DNA of 54,055 nt, filler included, from Limisphaerales bacterium (lineage in GTDB: Bacteria > Verrucomicrobiota > Verrucomicrobiia > Limisphaerales > SIBE01): assembly GCA_044225505.1 (NCBI GenBank). It is 2 parts of 2 records of this genome, joined end to end, with 100 filler letters (N's around TTAATTAATTAA, not from the genome) between each part and the next. Parts side by side here need not be neighbours in the genome. Positions count along the whole stretch, not along the records: positions 1 to 27,022 come from JBGAIN010000112.1; 1 more part is not named here. The stretch is one strand, 5' to 3'. Shown piece after piece: positions 51-27,122 of the stretch. Below the pieces are notes generated by a model. That model searched no databases. It worked only from the letters and a program-made list of their open reading frames with translations, and was not told the DNA's origin. The first letter of the stretch is position 1. The number at the start of each line of letters is the position of its first letter. The position numbers and the translations under genes were made by a program.

Positions 51-143
51 GCCCAACAAGCCAGATGCAGTGAACCCGGCGATAGCGCTCTGGTTGACAA
101 TCGAGTGCTAGGCGCGCCGGGTCACTGATCTGGATCGTTAGGC
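51..143 (+). other. attC recombination site (integron cassette)
   Basis: R'' GCCCAAC (51-57) and R' GTTAGGC (137-143). Arms CCAGATgCAGTGaACCCGGCG and CGCCGGGTCACTGATCTGG pair with two extrahelical bases on the R''-proximal arm. Confidence 0.9.
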
Positions 144-169: not shown

Positions 170-685
170 ATGCAGGACATCCAGAGACTCACAGCAGAAG
201 AGGCGCGGGGCGTTTTGCCTCAGCTTGTCGCTTTGCTTCAGGACGCGGTGCATGACGGTGCATCCATCGGCTTCACCCAGCCTCTGCCCGCCGATGTCGC
301 CGAGCGATATTGGCAGGATGTTTTTCGTGAGGTTGGGCACGGTTCTCGCATCTTGCTCGTGACCCGGCGTGAGGAGGTGGTCGTAGGCAGCGTGCAGTTG
401 GGACTTTGCACCCGCCCGAACGGACTGCACCGGGCAGAGGTGCAGAAGCTATTTGTCCACACTCGATGGCGGCGTCAGGGTATTGCCAAGGCATTGATGG
501 CGGCCATCGAGCAAGAGGCACGGTCCGCGCGGCGGTCGTTGCTCTACCTCGACACCGAGCCGCATAAGCCAGCCGCAGCAATGTATGAGCAGACGGGCTG
601 GATTCGGGTTGGCGAGATACCGGGCTATGCTTGCAGTCCCGACGGACATCTGCACGGCACGGCATTTTACTATCGGATGATTTGA
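170..685 (+). CDS. GNAT acetyltransferase, tabtoxin-resistance (Ttr)-like; gene cassette
   Basis: NGLHRAEVQKLFVH motif and acetyl-CoA motif RRQGIA; starts 27 nt after an R' box and ends 10 nt before R'' ACCTAAC. Confidence 0.85.
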   Translation: MQDIQRLTAEEARGVLPQLVALLQDAVHDGASIGFTQPLPADVAERYWQDVFREVGHGSRILLVTRREEVVVGSVQLGLCTRPNGLHRAEVQKLFVHTRWRRQGIAKALMAAIEQEARSARRSLLYLDTEPHKPAAAMYEQTGWIRVGEIPGYACSPDGHLHGTAFYYRMI

Positions 686-695
686 GCATGACGCG

Positions 696-802
696 ACCTA
701 ACCCTGAAGGGTGTATTGCTGCGGAGCGCGCCGGGAGAGAAGATCAAAGTGGCAAGTGAGGTGGCGGGCGCGCGGAGCCAGCAAATACGCCCCTGGTTGA
801 AC
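696..802 (-). other. attC-like hairpin in inverted orientation at the left end of the recombinase/transposase element
   Basis: Minus strand reads GTTCAAC(R'')..GGGCGTATtTGCTGgCTCCGCGCGCC...GGCGCGCTCCGCAGCAATACACCC..GTTAGGT(R'). The two extra bases lie on the GTTCAAC-proximal arm, i.e. opposite polarity to the other attCs. Confidence 0.7.
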
Positions 803-816
803 AAGCCGCTGTCGCG

Positions 817-862
817 CCGTCAGATTCCCGATATAGCGAAGTCCGTCAGCTCCCGATATGGC
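817..862 (+). repeat. Imperfect direct repeat pair just inside the left inverted repeat
   Basis: CCGTCAGATTCCCGATATAGC (817-837) and CCGTCAGCTCCCGATATGGC (843-862). Confidence 0.7.
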
Positions 863-1099
863 AGTTGTATTTTGCTTGAAACAGCCAGCATGATGAGTTG
901 GCTATAGTTTTCGACGCCAAAAGTGGCCGACAAAGGGGAGGCGGCGTGCGTTGGGGGGGGTGGAGACGTTTCCTTAAGGAGGTGAGCCAAGCTTCTGTGT
1001 GCTCTGGGCACGCGTTTGGAGGGTGGAAAAGGCCGCTGGCATCGCCGCCGACAAAAGAGGTGCGTGCGCGTGAGAGAGTGACTTTGTAACACGCGGTAT

Positions 1100-2233
1100 T
1101 CATGCGGCAGTGGAGGTGGACGGCGTCACTCTGCGCGGAGGTGGCGGGCCCCGTGTCTTGTGCCAAGGACTAATCGAAAAGAGCAAGCGGGTGGCCCGGC
1201 CGCACTTAAAACAGAGCGGAGTCGAGCAGGTGGTGGCCGGAGCGGCCGGTTCGGTGGCTCCGAAGTTGACGGTTCTTCCGGAGTGCAGTTGCACGCGCAG
1301 GCGCTTGGCTTTGGCGGTGGGATGGCAAAAGCCGTAGTAGCGGACGGAGCGCAATCCGCGGGGCAGGACGTGTCGGAGATAATAGGAGGCAAACTCCACA
1401 CCGGGCAGAGTCTTGATCTTCCAGCGGTTGTTCTCGGACCGATCCTTCCAGCGGAAAGTGACGGAGTCCTGAGTGACCGCGAGGATGCGCGCGTCGTTGA
1501 TGGCGGTGCGCGCGACGTAAGTGCTGAGGTATTTGACCGCCGGAGCTCCGCTGCCCACCGGTCGAATGTGGACACCCCAGTCTTTACTCCAGACGGCGGG
1601 GTCCACTTGCCAGCCGTGCTCTTTAAAGAGCTGATAGAGGTGCTGGCGGAAGGCGCTTTGCAGGTGCTCCAAATAGACCAGGAACTCATGATTCTTCACC
1701 CGCACAAAGTTGCCGTGGGGATCCAGTCCGGCTCCGGGCACCAGGCAGTGAATGTGAGGATGGAAGTGGAGCTGTTGGTTCCAGGTATGAAGGACGGCAG
1801 TAAACCCGTTGATGAAGGCGCGGAGGTTTTTGTCCGCGGCGAGCTTCTCACTCAGAGCGCGGGAGACCGCGGTGAAGAACAGGTCGAAGGCTTGCTTGGC
1901 GAAACGGCCAAAGAAGCAGCCGCGTAACTCCGCGGGCAGAGTGAAGGTGACCAGGAAATAAGGGGCGTTGACGAGCTTACGTAACTCGCGTTGGACCCAG
2001 TTGCGTGTGGCCATGGCGCCGCATTGGGGACAGGCCTTGTGGTTACAGGAGTGATAAGCGAAGTGGAGTTGGCCGCAGTCGCAGCCAAAGGCGTTCCCGC
2101 CCAAGGCCGCGGTGCGGCAATGAGTGATGGCCCAGATGGCGCGGCGTTGCTGCGGTGAGAGCCGAGGACCCGTTTTCAGGAACTCGGGCAGAAACCGCCG
2201 CAACGCCCCCAAAACGGTGGGGCGATCGGACAC
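1100..2233 (-). CDS. IS91-family rolling-circle (Y2) transposase with N-terminal Zn-binding domain
   Basis: HCRT..CDCG..HSCNHKACPQC Zn domain, HUH motif HFHPHIH, YxxxY motif YLSTY, and HVLPRGLRSVRYYG. Confidence 0.92.
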   Translation of the reverse strand: MSDRPTVLGALRRFLPEFLKTGPRLSPQQRRAIWAITHCRTAALGGNAFGCDCGQLHFAYHSCNHKACPQCGAMATRNWVQRELRKLVNAPYFLVTFTLPAELRGCFFGRFAKQAFDLFFTAVSRALSEKLAADKNLRAFINGFTAVLHTWNQQLHFHPHIHCLVPGAGLDPHGNFVRVKNHEFLVYLEHLQSAFRQHLYQLFKEHGWQVDPAVWSKDWGVHIRPVGSGAPAVKYLSTYVARTAINDARILAVTQDSVTFRWKDRSENNRWKIKTLPGVEFASYYLRHVLPRGLRSVRYYGFCHPTAKAKRLRVQLHSGRTVNFGATEPAAPATTCSTPLCFKCGRATRLLFSISPWHKTRGPPPPRRVTPSTSTAA

Positions 2234-2255
2234 GGTTGCTGGACAGAAGCGCCGG

Positions 2256-3311
2256 TTAGCGCGGCAAGCCTCGGCAGAGCTGGTCCATGAGGCGCAAGGC
2301 GTCCTGCGTGCTCTGGTGCGTCAAGTGCACGTAAACCATCGTGGTGGTGATCTGTGCATGACCCAGCAGCTGTTGGATGGTGCGGAGGTGGGCGCCAGCC
2401 TCAAGGAGGTGCGTCGCGAAACTATGGCGAAGTGAATGCGGTGACGCGGCAGGAATATTCAGCTCTTTGCGAGCCAGGACCAACAGCCGCTGCAAAGAAC
2501 TATGGGGCATCGGACGAGTGGCCTGGCGCATGCGCTCTGCCAGCGCCTTTGGGTCGTGGTCGCCCCGGCCCACATTGGGAAAGATTAACAAGGGGTGATG
2601 ATGGAAACGCCAATAGCGTTGGAGCTCCTGATACATCGCGGTGGGCAGCGGAACGACTCTATCCTTGTGGCCCTTGCTCTGGCGGATGATGAGTTTGTTT
2701 TCCTTGCCGAGAATATCGTGGATGGTCAGGCCCAGACACTCGCTTAAGCGCAGGCCGCAACAGTAGATGAGCTTGAGGGGCGTGCGGTAGCGGCGCAGGC
2801 GAATGTGCGCGAGCAGATCGTGGACTTGCTGGCGCGTCAGGACGGCCGGAAGGGTGTCGTGATCTTTGGTCCGAATCTGGGAAAAGAGCGTCCAGTCCGG
2901 TTTACCCAGCAGATCGACAAAGCACATTTTAGCGGCAGCCAGCGCCTGTCGAATGGTCTTGGGCTTCCAACCCTTCTTGAGTTTGACGAAAAGGAAATAC
3001 TCGCGGAGCTGGGCTTCGGTGATGGTGACGGGGTCACAACCCAAGTGTTCGTGCATTAGCCGCACCTGGCGATAGTAAGCGTGGCGGGTGCGATTAGCGT
3101 CGTAGCGCAGCGCCAAGAAATCGGCGAAGCGGGCCATCGACTCGTAAGGATGCTCGTAATCGACGGGATTGGCGTAAACTTGAGCTGAGGTCCGAATCTC
3201 TGCGAGTGCAGGAGCCTGAGAGCCGTGCTTAGGTGCGATCGGCTTTGTTTTGCCGCCTGGAGCTTGCTTGGTGTTGGGGTTGCCGGTGGATGAATGATTG
3301 GTGTTTTCCAT
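2256..3311 (-). CDS. Tyrosine recombinase (phage-integrase family, not IntI)
   Basis: Catalytic set GLRLSE, KGHKDR, HSLRHSFATH, LLGH, TTMVY. Lacks the IntI-specific ALxRKYP insertion. Start taken at MENTNH and is uncertain. Confidence 0.92.
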   Translation of the reverse strand: MENTNHSSTGNPNTKQAPGGKTKPIAPKHGSQAPALAEIRTSAQVYANPVDYEHPYESMARFADFLALRYDANRTRHAYYRQVRLMHEHLGCDPVTITEAQLREYFLFVKLKKGWKPKTIRQALAAAKMCFVDLLGKPDWTLFSQIRTKDHDTLPAVLTRQQVHDLLAHIRLRRYRTPLKLIYCCGLRLSECLGLTIHDILGKENKLIIRQSKGHKDRVVPLPTAMYQELQRYWRFHHHPLLIFPNVGRGDHDPKALAERMRQATRPMPHSSLQRLLVLARKELNIPAASPHSLRHSFATHLLEAGAHLRTIQQLLGHAQITTTMVYVHLTHQSTQDALRLMDQLCRGLPR

Positions 3312-3398
3312 ACACCGCGATGATAGTAGGATTCCCCTATGACGCCGCCTCGCGATGAGCACCACCGTGGTCGAAGCCCATCGCCGCGCAGCGGCTTA

Positions 3399-3491
3399 GT
3401 TCAACCATGCGCTGCAGCGAACCCGGCGTGAGCGTCGCGGTTGCAATCATTGCGTCCCGTGCGCCGGCTCGCTGAGCTTGGGGCGTTAGGC
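3399..3491 (+). other. attC site (body probably belongs to the GNAT cassette)
   Basis: GTTCAAC (3399-3405) ... GCTgCAGCGAaCCCGGCG / CGCCGGCTCGCTGAGC arms ... GTTAGGC (3485-3491); same family as the 51-143 site. Confidence 0.88.
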
Positions 3492-3493
3492 AC

Positions 3494-4375
3494 ATGAGTT
3501 CTGCGATTCGCCACTTGTCAGTGTGTGACGGAGATCCTCAGTTTGCCGCGGGGGAGTTTGAAAAGGTTGTTCACATCTATCGGTTCCGGAAGACCGCGCC
3601 TGAGACAACCATCTACACACATTTTGATTTTGGCGGGACTCGTCTGCAAATTGTCCCGCGAGATAACGTGCTTGTGACCGGGGCGTATAGCGTTTACGGG
3701 ATTGAGGGCTACAGCCTGCCGTCCGGGCGGCGTCTTTGGCAGCGTCGCGACTTGAAAAAGGTGCAGTCGATACAGTGGAATCCATCGGACAGCACGGTTT
3801 GTTGCTTTTTCGCGGACAGAGAATGTCTCGTTCTTGATCCTTGCACTGGTAAAGAGTTGTCGTTCTACCCAGCAGAGCTGGAGGATGGGCGTTATAACTC
3901 AGATGGACGAATGGTACTCCAAGACCGGCGTTCGAGGTATCTCGTTGTTCGCAACGAGACCACTCTGTTTTCGGTAGAGATGGAGTCGTTCGGAATGCTG
4001 GATGCGGCATTCTCCGAGGATTGCGTCGCTATTACCGAACCGTGCGGTTCGGTTCGATTCTATGAACTGACCACTGGGGAGCCGACGGGCCGATACATTC
4101 CGCCCTCTGGTTACCACGTCCTAAGCTTGGCCTTTCAGGCCAGCATCGGTGCGTTCGTCGGAGTATTGTGGGGGTATGAATCGACGGGAGACCACTATCT
4201 CGTACAGCTACGTCCGAGCGGCAAAGAAACGCGGCGCTTTGGGCTGGTCGATGCCCATACTTCGACCTTCCTCAATTCCGGTCAAACGATTCTTCTGGCC
4301 TCAGGTCAAGAGCTTTGTACCGAGACAGGTCGAGAGGTGTTTCGCTATGACTTTCCGGAACGTAGTGATGCCTAA
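3494..4375 (+). CDS. Hypothetical beta-rich (WD40/propeller-like) cassette protein
   Basis: 293-aa ORF starts 2 nt after R' and its stop codon lies inside R'' GCCTAAC; repeated 'TGE/TGK/TGR' turn motifs suggest a propeller fold. Confidence 0.7.
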   Translation: MSSAIRHLSVCDGDPQFAAGEFEKVVHIYRFRKTAPETTIYTHFDFGGTRLQIVPRDNVLVTGAYSVYGIEGYSLPSGRRLWQRRDLKKVQSIQWNPSDSTVCCFFADRECLVLDPCTGKELSFYPAELEDGRYNSDGRMVLQDRRSRYLVVRNETTLFSVEMESFGMLDAAFSEDCVAITEPCGSVRFYELTTGEPTGRYIPPSGYHVLSLAFQASIGAFVGVLWGYESTGDHYLVQLRPSGKETRRFGLVDAHTSTFLNSGQTILLASGQELCTETGREVFRYDFPERSDA

Positions 4376-4462
4376 CGAGGTCCCTGCACCGAGCGCCGGG
4401 GTTGCGCCACGCCTTAAAATCGTGCGCCATCGGCCCGGCGTCCCTCAGCCGGATCGTTCGCC
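4370..4462 (+). other. attC site (somewhat degenerate)
   Basis: R'' GCCTAAC (4370-4376), R' GTTCGCC (4456-4462), central CGCCGGG/CCCGGCG arms. Confidence 0.75.
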
Positions 4463-4470
4463 AAAGATCG

Positions 4471-4498
4471 TTGCGGTGGCCGACGGTTGGTTTATGTT
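4471..4498 (+). promoter_or_regulatory. Possible sigma70 promoter inside the TA cassette
   Basis: TTGCGG-16 bp-TATGTT ending 8 nt before the antitoxin ATG; TA cassettes usually carry their own promoter. Confidence 0.35.
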
Positions 4499-4506
4499 TC
4501 GGACGT

Positions 4507-4719
4507 ATGAACGTAGATTTGAATGGCCTCTCACGCGAGGAGAAGCTCAGGGTGATGCACGAGCTTTGGGAGGATTTGGCCCGGGATGAAGCTGCGATCG
4601 AATCTCCATCTTGGCACGCGGATGCGCTGCGCGAGACCGAAGAGAGAGTCCAGGCTGGAATCGAAGGTGTTCACGACTGGGAACAGGCCAAGAAGGAATT
4701 GCGAAGGCGCATGGAGTGA
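4507..4719 (+). CDS. Addiction-module antitoxin (TIGR02574-like)
   Basis: LSREEKLRVMHELWEDL...SPSWH..AL.E.E..V..G....DWEQAKKEL pattern; GTGA overlap with the toxin gene. Confidence 0.8.
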   Translation: MNVDLNGLSREEKLRVMHELWEDLARDEAAIESPSWHADALRETEERVQAGIEGVHDWEQAKKELRRRME

Positions 4720-5012
4720 AACTCCGGCTGCTCAATTCAGCCCTCGAGGACCTTGACCGAGGCAGGAGCTTTTATGAGCGGCAGGCAGAAGGTTTGGGCG
4801 CTTACTTCCTGGACAGCCTCTTTTCTGAGATCGATTCGTTGGTCCTGTTCGGTGGCATTCATCGGAAGGTGTTTGGCTATCACCGAGTCATTGCGCGACG
4901 ATTTCCCTATGCCGTTTATTACAGGGTCGAAGTGGATCGGGTTGTCGTTGTCTGGCGAGTGCTGGACCTCCGCCAGTCGCCGGTGAGCATCCGTCGCGAA
5001 CTGCGAAAATGA
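4716..5012 (+). CDS. RelE/ParE-family toxin
   Basis: SALEDL...FYERQAEGLG.YF..SL..EIDSL...RRFPYAVYY...VWRVLDLRQSP pattern. Confidence 0.85.
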   Translation: MKLRLLNSALEDLDRGRSFYERQAEGLGAYFLDSLFSEIDSLVLFGGIHRKVFGYHRVIARRFPYAVYYRVEVDRVVVVWRVLDLRQSPVSIRRELRK

Positions 5013-5018
5013 TGGCGA

Positions 5019-5190
5019 ATCGGGTCGCCGGGAGGATTGACTTCCGGCTCCCACACCACCTGACATGCGGGTCCGCATCAGGCGGTTCCGGTTAGATTAA
5101 CGGAGGCAGGATCAAACTTTTGATTTTGCTTTCCGTAATGCATTTCAACCCATTGTTGCGTCAAGTTGGGCACTCCCTGTTCGGCTAACC
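5019..5190 (-). mobile_element. 3' remnant of a group IIC-attC intron (domains V-VI plus the maturase C-terminus)
   Basis: Minus strand GAACCGCCTGATGCGGACCCGCATGTCAGGTGGTGTGGGAG...CCCGGCGACCCGAT ends inside R'' (GGCGA|AT). The upstream minus frame reads LAEQGVPNLTQQWVEMHYG..., like the C-termini of IIC intron-encoded proteins. Confidence 0.85.
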
Positions 5191-5290
5191 GATACTTCCA
5201 AGATGCAGCGGTCTGGAATGAGGACGCCATCCGCGCTCGTGGTCAGAAGCTTTTTGAAATCGCTCTCCAGGTCTGGCCGTATGGCTCCTT
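5187..5290 (+). pseudogene. C-terminal remnant of a DUF262/DUF1524 (GmrSD-like) gene
   Basis: NRYFQDAAVWNEDAIRARGQKLFEIALQVWP resembles the typical DUF1524 C-terminus; no N-terminal part is present. Confidence 0.55.
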
Positions 5291-5292
5291 TA

Positions 5293-5322
5293 ACCTGCCG
5301 GGACCTGCCGGGACCTGCCGGG
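5293..5322 (+). repeat. Tandem repeat (ACCTGCCGGG)x3
   Basis: Three exact 10-bp copies read directly. Confidence 0.9.
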
Positions 5323-5458
5323 ATGATCTTCGCGAGATGGACCCATGCTTAGTCGATCTAACGCTCAGGCTATTCGCGCTGGAGGACAGAATTGGGTCGG
5401 GGCACGCACGCCTGCACTGTTCAATCTCACGAAGACTTGATAGGCTCCCGTCACGTTG

Positions 5459-6043
5459 ATGCCAAAAGAGCTGTCAAAGAAAGAGCTCAGCGAGCGCGAC
5501 ATCTGCACGAAATTCATTACTCCGGCGCTGGTGGATGGAGCCAAGTGGGATTCGATGGGCCAGATTCGGGAGGAGGTTTCATTCACGAAGGGGCGGGTCA
5601 TTGTTCGCGGCCAGGTTTCCGTCCGTGGAGAGCCAAAGCGCGCCGATTACGTGCTTTCCTACAAGCCCGGGCTTCCGCTGGCCATTGTTGAGGCCAAGGA
5701 CAACAATCACAGCGTCGGAGCTGGCATGCAGCAGGCGCTGGAGTACAGCGACATTTTGGATGTGCGATTCGTTTTCAGCTCCAACGGCGACGCTTTCCTG
5801 TTCCACGATAAGACTGGCCAATCGGATCCGGTGGAGCGGGAAATTGCGCTGGATGAGTTTCCCTCGGCGGATGATCTTTGGCGGCGCTACTCAGTCTGGA
5901 AGGGACTGACCCCAGCCCAGGAGGTTGTCGTCAGCCAGCCGTACTTCCCACAAGCGCCGGACAAAGCGCCCCGGTATTACCAGGAAATCGCGATCAATCG
6001 CGCCATCGAGGCGATTGCCAAAGGTGAGAAGCGCATCCTGCTG
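5459..6043 (+). pseudogene. hsdR: Truncated type I restriction subunit R (EcoAI-like), N-terminal nuclease domain only
   Basis: SERDICTKFITPAL, RADYVL, AIVEAK, QQALEY, FSSNG, PRYYQ.IAINRAIEAI..G.KRILL; homology stops just before the helicase Walker A motif. Confidence 0.85.
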
Positions 6044-6137
6044 TCCGAAAACGCCGTCACGCGTCTCAGACGGGCCGGATACTCATCGAGTTCTCGCGCA
6101 TGTAGTCGCTCATCGTCGAAATCCGGACAGGTATCAA

Positions 6138-6917
6138 ATGAGTACCGACCAGCCTACAAATGAGAGTTGGGGAAAGTTAGCAAAGGCTCCTATCGTCGAA
6201 GCCGTGCTGGACATCGACTGCGCCCTGCCGCCCGGGCGGCCGGTTGCTGACCTGGAGCGCGCGGCACGCGAGGCCTATGGCGATCGATATCCCAAGTCAA
6301 GGGTTCAACTCATCCAACAGCAGCGGTTGGAAACTCACGGGGGCGCTCCGCCACAACTTACGGTGCAGCAAGGGATTCAGGCATTCCAGTTCCTGCACCA
6401 GGACGAGCGTCAACTGGTGCAGGTCCGCGTCCAAGGTTACTCTTTCAACCGCCTCGCTCCGTACACCACCCTGGACGACTACTTGCCGGAAATCCAACGA
6501 ACCTGGGAGTTGTTCGTGCGGATCGCCTCTCCGGTCGAGGTGCGAGGGATTCGCTTGCGCTACATCAACCGAATTGTCCTTCCGATGGAAGGCGGCCGAG
6601 TCGACTTGGACCAATACCTCAGGACTGGACCCCGCCTACCCGACGAAGAATCACTCATGCTTGCCGGATTTCTATCCCAAAACGCGGCTATCGAGCGTAA
6701 TACAGGGAACCATTTAATCACGGTTTTGACGCACGAACTCCAACAACTGGAGACCTTGCCGATTATCTTGGACATCACAGCCAAGTCTGCCGTGCAGCCC
6801 CTGAACCCCACAAATTTGGCCGAGATTCTCACCCGAGTCCAGTCGCTTAGAGACTTGAAGAATCGTGCTTTCCGAAATACCCTGACCTCGCGATGCTTGA
6901 AATTATTTCAACCGTAG
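6138..6917 (+). CDS. TIGR04255-family protein
   Basis: LAKAPIVEAVLDI, FNRLAPY, RIRLRYINRI-type motif (GIRLRYINRI), IILDI, LRDLKNRAF; start taken at MSTDQP. Confidence 0.8.
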   Translation: MSTDQPTNESWGKLAKAPIVEAVLDIDCALPPGRPVADLERAAREAYGDRYPKSRVQLIQQQRLETHGGAPPQLTVQQGIQAFQFLHQDERQLVQVRVQGYSFNRLAPYTTLDDYLPEIQRTWELFVRIASPVEVRGIRLRYINRIVLPMEGGRVDLDQYLRTGPRLPDEESLMLAGFLSQNAAIERNTGNHLITVLTHELQQLETLPIILDITAKSAVQPLNPTNLAEILTRVQSLRDLKNRAFRNTLTSRCLKLFQP

Positions 6918-27022: not shown

Positions 27023-27122
27023 NNNNNNNNNNNNNNNNNNNNNNNNNNNNNNNNNNNNNNNNNNNNTTAATTAATTAANNNNNNNNNNNNNNNNNNNNNN
27101 NNNNNNNNNNNNNNNNNNNNNN
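27023..27122. other. Artificial contig spacer (N44-TTAATTAATTAA-N44)
   Basis: 100-nt N run with a symmetric six-frame stop linker at 27067-27078. Confidence 0.97.

What the first reader, a model, noticed from the sequence alone, without database searches (positions are those of the whole stretch)
696..3491. attC-targeting tyrosine recombinase + rolling-circle Y2 transposase element with its own inverted attC
Seen: the two-gene unit is bounded by imperfect inverted repeats whose outer ends both read GTTCAAC, an R''-like box. Each end is followed outward by an attC hairpin: 3399-3491 on the plus strand and 802-696 on the minus strand, where the extrahelical bases have opposite polarity. Deleting 703-3405 restores a normal attC for the GNAT cassette, with AAC shared at both junctions. 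Known: IS91/HUH enzymes generate ssDNA, IntI recombines folded ssDNA attC at G/TT, and the attC invaders I know of are group IIC-attC introns and IS1111-attC. Recombinase + IS91 gene pairs are themselves catalogued. Inference: this is a self-mobile, reverse-oriented 'cassette'. The Y2 protein would supply ssDNA or copies and a non-IntI recombinase would insert them at R'' boxes, making it a possible third class of attC parasite.
Basis: partly seen in the sequence, partly recalled or inferred. Interest (0 to 1): 0.88.

Follow-up and report, generated by a model that had tools for sequence, protein, structure and literature searches.

The report
IS91-type insertion sequence that targets attC
A 2.7-kb jumping gene carrying a rolling-circle transposase and a tyrosine recombinase sits at one exact spot inside an integron recombination site, and its relatives in many bacteria, including one on a clinical E. 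coli resistance plasmid, sit at the same spot.

Summary
Window 703-3405 is a 2,703-bp IS91-family element on the minus strand. It encodes a Y2/HUH transposase and a Xer/IntI-like tyrosine recombinase. It lies between the R'' box (696-702) and the rest (3406-3491) of the GNAT cassette's attC, antiparallel to the cassettes.

The mobile unit runs AAC to AAC and includes the left hairpin, so it is not an ordinary IntI-moved cassette.
- All 11 close relatives with a readable left junction follow an AAC.
- A host-type attC model hits the right junction in 11 of 14 copies.
- 104 of 113 distinct metagenome contexts have AAC, mostly GCCTAAC-like R'' boxes.
- A 34%-identical relative on an E. coli IncC plasmid splits attC(aadA1) at the same point, and the empty allele lacks the hairpin.

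The hairpin is not shown to be an attC: the host-type model misses it on both strands. The recombinase is not an IntI. Its score is below cut-off, it lacks the IntI insert, and it falls outside the IntI clade.

Two metagenome contigs show an exact ter-ori head-to-tail junction, which could be a circle or a tandem. The division of labour between the two enzymes is inferred. Nine literature searches found no description of this targeting.

The parts
51..143 (+). uninterrupted attC upstream of the GNAT cassette (host array)
   Evidence: fold; attC model R1 88.3 bits, (it is one of the 10 training sites)
170..685 (+). GNAT acetyltransferase cassette ORF whose attC is interrupted
   Evidence: Pfam Acetyltransf_1 E 7e-14
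696..702 (+). host attC R'' box ACCTAAC; the element follows its AAC
   Evidence: complementary in 6 of 7 positions to R' at 3485-3491
703..3405 (-). the mobile element, 2,703 bp. The joint can lie anywhere within or beside the shared AAC (700-702 / 3403-3405)
   Evidence: boundaries from comparison of 11-14 diverged copies and from the filled/empty pair of a relative
703..795 (+). ori-end region: 6-nt spacer, hairpin arms 709-721 and 779-792, and a copy-specific long loop 729-771
   Evidence: arms identical in the 75%-identical second copy; hairpin kept in 13 of 13 relatives; short-loop variants in other samples
796..811 (+). inner inverted repeat beginning with the GTTGAAC box (796-802)
   Evidence: box kept from Verrucomicrobia to Gammaproteobacteria
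1100..2233 (-). IS91-family Y2/HUH transposase
   Evidence: NF033538 309 bits (cut-off 125); HUH His, two Tyr and Zn Cys invariant in 10 of 10
2256..3365 (-). tyrosine recombinase (Xer/IntI superfamily, not IntI); start codon uncertain
   Evidence: R-K-H-R-H-Y positions invariant in 10 of 10
3383..3395 (+). ter-end subterminal palindrome (5-bp stem, 3-nt loop)
   Evidence: kept with compensating changes in relatives
3389..3405 (+). inverted repeat ending in the GTTCAAC box (3399-3405) = ter end
3406..3491 (+). remainder of the host attC (L'', loop, L', R' GTTAGGC at 3485-3491)
   Evidence: R1 hit 3399-3491, 51.9 bits; same body behind other R'' boxes in metagenome contigs
4370..4462 (+). next uninterrupted attC of the array
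   Evidence: R1 66.1 bits, (training site)

Best explanation
Window 703-3405 is an autonomous IS91-family insertion sequence. It carries a Y2/HUH rolling-circle transposase and, upstream of it, a catalytically intact tyrosine recombinase.

Shown:
- It has inserted without duplication or loss directly behind the AAC of the R'' box of the GNAT cassette's attC. Its genes are antiparallel to the cassettes.
- Its family does the same across Verrucomicrobia and Gammaproteobacteria.
- It has IS91-type asymmetric ends. The ter end has a small palindrome followed by ..GTTCAAC. The ori end, downstream of the transposase gene, has a hairpin followed by GTTGAAC.

Inferred, by analogy with IS91:
- The Y2 enzyme nicks at the ori end, peels off the strand antisense to its gene (the window + strand), and closes it at ter into a single-stranded circle.
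- At the ter-ori joint of that circle, the two complementary 7-mers and the hairpin can fold into an attC-shaped stem.

Inferred, my preferred reading (about 0.45):
- The recombinase pairs this folded joint with a folded host attC top strand and exchanges one strand in the AAC. Replication then completes the insertion.

That the element is attC-targeted and mobile I hold at about 0.9.
For: Identity:
- Pfam and NCBIfam assignments.
- Catalytic residues of both proteins are invariant in 10 of 10 relatives down to 31-38% identity.

Target:
- A second copy in the same genome, 75% identical, has different flanks but the same anatomy.
- 11 of 11 close copies with a readable left junction follow AAC.
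- attC model R1 hits the right junction on the array strand in 11 of 14 copies, always with the element genes antiparallel.
- In the metagenome scan, 104 of 113 distinct upstream contexts have AAC. The 7-mers are GCCTAAC 32, GCCCAAC 16, GGCTAAC 14, GCCGAAC 9.
- In 68 of 83 of those contexts a same-strand ORF ends within 45 nt of the box.

True filled and empty alleles:
- On the E. coli IncC plasmid, a 34%-identical relative lies between GTCTAAC and AATTCG.. of attC(aadA1).
- The intact site without the hairpin is seen in another plasmid, and matching flanks are adjacent in many more records.
- Salinivibrio shows the same arrangement.

IS91 logic:
- IS91 makes no duplication, has a target tetranucleotide beside ori related to the ter cleavage site, has subterminal palindromes, and inserts a bottom-strand ss circle (PMC13181058, section 4 read).

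Junction:
- An exact ter-ori head-to-tail junction occurs in two metagenome contigs. One contig is 2,778 nt long, about one element length.

Not IntI:
- TIGR02249 158.8 bits against a cut-off of 265.
- A 30-residue gap where IntI has its extra segment.
- Outside the IntI clade in the tree.
Against: - No experiment and no raw reads were available. The head-to-tail junction could be a tandem pair, because the ter end plus the host remainder recreates a target.
- The hairpin is not recognised by the host-type attC model on either strand. It is weakly stable in this copy.
- Three of 14 close copies gave no attC hit at the right junction: own copy 2, L034 and L048.
- Some distant relatives (L043, L051, L054, L063) sit in flanks that do not look like attC.
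- Nine of 113 metagenome contexts lack AAC at the expected offset.
- Nothing shows which enzyme makes the insertion joint. The shared AAC hides whether the cut is RYYY|AAC (IS91-like), AA|C (IntI-like) or AAC|.
- The opposite-strand control was poor (44 of 83).
Confidence: 0.6

Rival explanations
1. Y2-only IS91 transposition. The transposase alone excises and inserts the single-stranded circle, cutting behind a 4-nt word (NAAC, or RYYY before AAC). The recombinase is an accessory protein that takes the place of IS91's Orf121, for example for termination control, regulation or resolving tandems. The attC preference comes from attC hairpins being exposed as single strands.
For: - The junction anatomy obeys the IS91 rules. 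There is no duplication, the word beside ori (TAAC/GAAC/CAAC) is related to the ter word (CAAC), and GTTC lies in the ter box as in IS801/IS1294.
- The recombinase gene occupies the position of orf121.
- Some distant relatives sit behind AAC in flanks that are not evidently attC: L043 and L051.
Against: - A 4-nt word cannot explain the restriction to the R'' box of attC in 104 of 113 contexts, nor the single orientation.
- All six catalytic residues of the recombinase are invariant across 38-100% identity, which argues that it cuts and joins DNA.
- The two 7-mers match the IntI-type core words GTTRRRY/RYYYAAC and are kept across phyla.
Confidence: 0.3
2. The recombinase does both excision and integration on folded hairpins, as IntI does. 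Y2 only replicates the element or is a passenger.
For: - R-box-like 7-mers flank a hairpin.
- The joint lies within AAC, where IntI cuts its substrates.
- The best solved-structure match is VchIntIA (105.7 bits).
Against: - The Y2 catalytic motifs are invariant.
- The pair is conserved as a unit in 24 of 79 recombinase loci and in all close copies.
- The ends are IS91-like and asymmetric.
Confidence: 0.08
3. An ordinary gene cassette (or two) moved by the host IntI. Here 696-802 is the GNAT cassette's own attC and 797-3485 is a normal cassette that happens to carry an IS.
For: - GTTGAAC fits GTTRRRY, and GTTCAAC is its exact complement, as expected for a cassette's first bases and its R'' box.
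- The genome has an IntI over the cut-off (267.6 bits).
- Solo hairpins stand at normal attC positions in L046 and L266.
Against: - The left hairpin travels with the element, while the right-hand attC body differs from copy to copy.
- The empty allele of the E. coli relative lacks the hairpin.
- The hairpin is not matched by the host attC model.
- A canonical bottom-strand IntI reaction would join at G|TT of R', not behind R''.
Confidence: 0.03

Closest known systems
IS91 family (IS91, IS801, IS1294): rolling-circle insertion sequences
   Same: - Y2/HUH transposase with an N-terminal zinc domain.
- No target duplication.
- Unequal ends: a palindrome next to the ter cleavage word containing GTTC, and a hairpin at the ori end downstream of tnpA.
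- A short target word beside ori that is related to the ter word.
- A head-to-tail ter-ori junction.
   Different: - A catalytic tyrosine recombinase lies upstream of tnpA, where IS91 has orf121.
- It has conserved GTTGAAC/GTTCAAC 7-mers.
- Its target is restricted to the R'' box of integron attC sites, in one orientation.
- IS91-family members with an integrase-like ORF are listed in ISfinder as I recall. I did not see this in any call, and I found no statement of their target.
IS1111-attC group (IS110 family)
   Same: Insertion sequences that insert specifically in attC sites. The name was seen in search listings; the properties are recalled.
   Different: A different transposase class (DEDD; recalled). 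No Y2 and no tyrosine recombinase. I did not check its position within attC here.
Group IIC-attC introns
   Same: They invade attC sites and split a cassette gene from its attC (PMC8876359, passages). One lies next to the family member on P. damselae pPHDD1.
   Different: They are retroelements with a reverse transcriptase. The element here has only a Y2 transposase and a recombinase.
Integron cassette / IntI system
   Same: - 7-mers of the GTTRRRY/RYYYAAC type flank an imperfect hairpin.
- The joint lies in AAC.
- A single-stranded folded substrate is plausible.
- The recombinase's best solved-structure match is VchIntIA.
   Different: - The recombinase is below the IntI cut-off, lacks the IntI-specific segment and lies outside the IntI clade.
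- The unit runs AAC..AAC.
- It inserts behind R'' on the cassette top strand, inverted.
- The hairpin is not hit by the host attC model.
ISCR28 next to attC in sul4 modules
   Same: [quoted passage not shown]
   Different: No partner recombinase is described there. The authors read the adjacency as passive shuffling within cassettes, and no exact insertion point is reported.

Membership tests
IS91 family | Y2_Tnp catalytic domain with HUH motif and two tyrosines, plus the zinc-binding N-terminus | tested here: met
   PF04986 E 3e-40 and PF14319 E 1.5e-25. NF033538 309 bits against a cut-off of 125. H158/H160/H162, Y235, Y239 and the Cys residues are invariant in 10 of 10.
IS91 family | no target-site duplication | tested here: met
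   The filled (L132) versus empty (L133) attC(aadA1) of a relative shows nothing duplicated or lost. In the window this is inferred from flank continuity.
IS91 family | functionally different ends with subterminal palindromes; ori downstream of tnpA | tested here: met
   ter palindrome at 3383-3395 next to the GTTCAAC box. The ori hairpin at 709-792 lies downstream of the Y2 gene. Compared with the description in PMC13181058.
IS91 family | target tetranucleotide beside ori (GTTC/CTTG type) | tested here: inconclusive
   The flank reads NAAC, or RYYY if the cut lies before AAC. It is related to the ter word but is not GTTC/CTTG.
IS91 family | rolling-circle transposition through a ter-ori circle | tested here: inconclusive
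   Two contigs carry an exact ter-ori junction (L271, L291). One Logan contig has the two ends joined with 5 other letters between. A circle and a tandem pair cannot be told apart.
Integron integrase (IntI) | score over the curated cut-off of TIGR02249 | tested here: not met
   158.8 bits against a cut-off of 265. The match falls in two pieces that skip model positions about 178-235.
Integron integrase (IntI) | IntI-specific extra segment in the catalytic domain | tested here: not met
   A 30-residue gap opposite that segment of the genome's own IntI. The match to 2a3v is split.
Integron integrase (IntI) | placement inside the IntI clade | tested here: not met
   The IntI clade has SH-aLRT 100. 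Y2-linked recombinases fall in three other clades plus one lone row. This was a quick tree of 113 rows.
attC site (for hairpin 696-802) | match to an attC covariance model | tested here: not met
   Host-type model R1, filters off, both strands: nothing spans the hairpin and the best score is under 6 bits. The general IntegronFinder model was not available.
attC site (for hairpin 696-802) | extrahelical bases on a fixed arm | tested here: inconclusive
   There is one bulge on the 3' arm in this subfamily. The side varies in relatives.
Integron gene cassette | unit bounded at G|TT of successive R' boxes and carrying its own attC at its 3' end | tested here: not met
   The conserved unit runs from behind a host AAC to its own ..GTTCAAC. 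The right-hand attC body varies with the site.
Group IIC-attC intron / IS1111-attC | reverse transcriptase, or DEDD transposase | tested here: not met
   The element's only long ORFs with a family assignment are a Y2 transposase and a tyrosine recombinase.

The most novel reading that the evidence does not exclude
A two-enzyme, single-strand pathway that runs independently of the integron:
- The HUH/Y2 transposase makes a single-stranded circle.
- The ter-ori joint of that circle folds into an R-box-plus-hairpin site.
- A Xer-like recombinase that lacks the IntI-specific segment recombines this site with the folded TOP strand of attC, the strand IntI avoids.

This would be a second, separate invention (or a relative of the ancestor) of folded-ssDNA site-specific recombination. 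It would also be a parasite that exploits the strand of attC exposed during replication.
Probability: 0.35. Interest if true: 0.9.

Novelty: new variant of a known kind. Interest (0 to 1): 0.8.

Why it matters
- It adds a third kind of mobile element aimed at integron attC sites. It also gives a likely job to the unexplained recombinase gene of one IS91 subgroup.
- Insertion separates a cassette gene from its attC body. It creates a hybrid attC with GTTCAAC as R'', which should change how cassettes are excised and shuffled.
- The family is widespread in soil, sludge and freshwater metagenomes. It has reached a class 1 integron on a conjugative IncC plasmid, in 1 of at least 5,000 matching plasmid records.
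- If the two-enzyme reading holds, it links rolling-circle transposition with hairpin recombination. It would also offer a natural system that reads the attC strand IntI does not use.

Tried and rejected
- My first attC scans used too strict an energy threshold and found nothing. I loosened it.
- No true empty allele of the GNAT cassette was found. No contig in 4 of the 22 listed runs bridged 400-702 to 3406; all were Logan contigs with no raw reads. A pattern search of the own genome for the R''-to-body continuity found only the window itself, plus one unrelated 3-mismatch hit.
- The own genome holds no further Y2 copies. It holds one decayed hairpin remnant.
- The ordinary-cassette model was considered and rejected (see rivals).
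- The idea that the recombinase is a diverged IntI was rejected.
- Extrahelical-base polarity as proof of an inverted attC was rejected as inconsistent.
- Literature: 9 searches found no paper on IS91-plus-recombinase elements targeting attC. One search was a mistyped query.
- ISfinder and TnPedia could not be consulted, and no supplements were opened.
- The opposite-strand control was uninformative.
- No structure prediction, complex prediction or large protein-database search was run.
Full report
WHAT IS THERE

The first 27,022 bases of the window are one contig of a 9-Mb, 342-contig genome of the order Verrucomicrobiales. The contig starts inside an integron cassette array read on the + strand.
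- Uninterrupted attC sites lie at 51-143 and 4370-4462.
- A GNAT cassette ORF lies at 170-685.
- The genome encodes an integron integrase over the curated cut-off on another contig (267.6 bits). attC sites begin next to it at that contig's end.

Between the GNAT gene and the next cassette lie two minus-strand genes.
- The first is an IS91-family Y2 transposase at 1100-2233 (Y2_Tnp and Zn_Tnp_IS91; NF033538 309 bits against a cut-off of 125).
- The second is a tyrosine recombinase at 2256-3365 (Phage_integrase and SAM_4).

- GTTGAAC (796-802) and GTTCAAC (3399-3405) are the outer ends of an imperfect inverted repeat.
- ACCTAAC at 696-702 and GTTAGGC at 3485-3491 are a matching R''/R' pair.
- Joining 696-702 to 3406-3491 in a script gives one long attC-like hairpin.

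WHERE THE MOBILE UNIT ENDS

A second copy in the same genome is 75% identical in DNA and sits in a different cassette array. Recombinase relatives at 58-76% identity occur patchily: 14 of 201 genomes of the order, including this one, at E 1e-40 or better. I fetched their flanks and two more close copies from a scan of species genomes. Every copy repeats the same layout, in this order:
1. A host 7-mer ending in AAC.
2. Three variable bases.
3. A conserved hairpin.
4. GTTGAAC-AAGCC.
5. The two genes.
6. A small palindrome.
7. GGCTT(A/T)-GTTCAAC.
8. A host sequence that differs from copy to copy.

Counts for the close family:
- All 11 copies with a readable left junction follow AAC. Two more are cut by contig ends.
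- Fourteen right junctions were readable. One near-identical duplicate, L041, was not counted.

The hairpin arms are identical between the two copies of this genome although their genes are only 75% alike. So the unit that moves includes the left hairpin and excludes the right-hand attC body. Its ends are AAC to AAC (window 703-3405), not G|TT to G|TT as for a cassette.

IS THE TARGET AN attC?

I built a covariance model from 10 uninterrupted attC sites of these genomes and searched 17 sources.
- It hit the right junction (GTTCAAC plus the host body) in 11 of the 14 close copies. The window's 3399-3491 scored 51.9 bits, E 1e-11.
- Hits were always on the strand of the neighbouring intact attCs, with the element's genes antiparallel.
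- It missed the genome's second copy, L034 and L048.
- A 41%-identical relative (L042) was hit. Another (L043) was not, and its flanks do not look like attC.

Contigs from other metagenomes carry the same attC body directly behind other ..CTAAC boxes. These are paralogous uninterrupted sites.

- 113 had distinct upstream 30-mers, and 104 of those have AAC at the expected offset.
- The 7-mers are the textbook R'' type: GCCTAAC 32, GCCCAAC 16, GGCTAAC 14, GCCGAAC 9.
- In 68 of 83 contexts with enough sequence, a same-strand ORF of at least 50 codons ends within 45 nt of the box. The control for this count was poor.

A TRUE FILLED AND EMPTY PAIR

A protein search of plasmids found a 34%-identical recombinase next to an IS91 transposase on an E. 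coli IncC plasmid. It lies inside a class 1 integron between aadA1 and qacEdelta1, antiparallel to the cassettes.
- The element lies between GTCTAAC and AATTCG.. of attC(aadA1).
- It has its own hairpin plus GTTGAAC at the ori end and ..GTTCAAC at the ter end.
- Another IncC plasmid has the intact site, GTCTAAC directly followed by AATTCG.., with no hairpin.
- Only 1 of at least 5,000 matching plasmid records holds the full element. The listed flank-only matches span about 215 bp, meaning the flanks are adjacent.

Further named cases:
- A Salinivibrio plasmid shows the same arrangement in a Vibrionaceae-type attC.
- A Shewanella plasmid holds a truncated ori end behind an ..GCTAAC box.

WHAT THE HAIRPIN IS AND IS NOT

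- With filters off, the host-type attC model finds nothing spanning 696-802 on either strand.
- The window copy folds no better than many shuffles (z -1.27).
- A hairpin is present at that place in 13 of 13 diverse relatives, with at least ten different self-complementary stems. It is therefore conserved as a structure.
- In the window's subfamily its single bulge is on the arm opposite to the bulges of host attCs. However, the spacer asymmetry runs the other way, and the bulge side varies across the family.

I therefore call it an ori-end hairpin flanked by R-box-like 7-mers, not an attC.

THE PROTEINS

- The six catalytic positions of the recombinase are invariant in 10 of 10 relatives down to 38% identity.
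- The HUH histidines, both tyrosines and the zinc cysteines of Y2 are invariant in 10 of 10 down to 31%.
- The recombinase scores 158.8 bits on the IntI model against a cut-off of 265, in two pieces. Xer models score about 146 bits.
- It has a 30-residue gap where the genome's own IntI has its extra segment.
- Its best solved relative is VchIntIA, followed closely by XerC-like and XerD.
- In a quick tree of 113 recombinases, the IntI clade (31 IntI plus 5 unlabelled rows) has support 100. The Y2-linked recombinases fall in three other clades plus one lone row.
- The window's protein shares a clade with support 100 with L042 and the E. coli plasmid protein.
- Of 79 loci from the species-genome scan, 24 have a Y2 gene directly downstream of the recombinase, from several phyla.

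HOW IT MOST LIKELY WORKS

The anatomy matches what is described for IS91 (PMC13181058, section 4 and passages):
- no duplication;
- a palindrome beside the ter cleavage word, with GTTC inside the ter box;
- ori downstream of tnpA;
- a short target word beside ori that is related to the ter word;
- insertion of a bottom-strand single-stranded circle.

Here the transferred strand would be the window + strand. Two metagenome contigs read the ter end directly into the ori end. One of these contigs is 2,778 nt long with the joint in its middle. One Logan contig joins the ends with five other letters between. These could be circles or tandem copies, because the ter end plus the host body recreates a target.

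In such a circle, GTTCAAC, the spacer, the hairpin and GTTGAAC can fold into an attC-shaped site.

What is not shown is which enzyme makes the insertion joint.
- The shared AAC leaves room for an IS91-type cut (RYYY|AAC or AAC|) and for an IntI-type cut (AA|C).
- A canonical IntI bottom-strand reaction is excluded by the geometry, because the joint is behind R'' on the cassette top strand.
- I favour Y2 for making the circle and the recombinase for attC-specific integration (about 0.45).
- My reasons are that a 4-nt word cannot explain the specificity, and that the recombinase has kept its full catalytic set.
- A Y2-only mechanism stays a serious rival (about 0.3).

NOVELTY

Nine full-text searches found no description of this targeting. 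The nearest statement in print is that attC sites lie right after ISCR28 in sul4 modules, which the authors read as passive carriage (PMC12772301, passages). ISfinder and TnPedia could not be consulted. That IS91 members with an integrase-like ORF are catalogued there is recalled, not seen.

Noticed in passing
L046 2851-2919 (G155:C71); also metagenome locus L266: The element-type hairpin stands alone at a normal attC position, between a host R'' and a matching GTTAGG-type R'. Its arms are fully complementary, including the spacer. In L046 it is one cassette downstream of a full element. It could be a remnant, an IntI-processed hybrid site, or the attC type from which the ori hairpin derives.
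   Followed up: partly
L132 (E. coli IncC plasmid NZ_LT985243.1), locus 3823-6141: A family member sits in attC(aadA1) of a class 1 integron between aadA1 and qacEdelta1. It is the only full copy among at least 5,000 matching plasmid records.
   Followed up: yes
metagenome loci L174/L287 and L264: These look like deletion derivatives. In L174/L287 the hairpin is followed directly by a host attC body. In L264 the hairpin is followed by GTTCAAC and then the attC body, as if the gene-bearing core alone were missing.
   Followed up: no
Read-laying run X11, window 3327-3406 joined to 698-981: One 370-nt, depth-3.4 contig joins the ter end to the ori end with five other letters between. The two element ends are 11 nt apart, ending in ..CTAAC. 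It could be two insertions in one attC or an imprecise circle.
   Followed up: no
L108, L111, L115 (one Prolixibacteraceae MAG): Three copies of a distant recombinase-Y2 element share a long conserved hairpin on the ter side ending ..CCTAC-GTTA. Their left flanks end in ..AAT rather than AAC. This may be a subfamily with other boundaries, or a homogeneous host attC.
   Followed up: partly
L129 (G000:C219:21192-21211 region): A decayed ori-end remnant behind a GCCCTAAC box in a third contig of the same genome.
   Followed up: partly
G000:C311:23515-24440: A second integron-integrase-like gene in the genome is interrupted by stop codons (176.7 and 68.8 bits).
   Followed up: no
L168 (P. damselae pPHDD1) 589-2061: A group II intron reverse transcriptase lies about 850 bp from the recombinase-Y2 pair, so two kinds of attC invader may sit side by side.
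   Followed up: no
window 27023-27122: Runs of N occur here. Only 1-27022 belong to the contig that holds the finding.
   Followed up: no
window 4402-5012: Two small overlapping + strand ORFs (105 and 133 aa) form the cassette after 4370-4462. This resembles a toxin-antitoxin pair by layout only; it was not tested.
   Followed up: no
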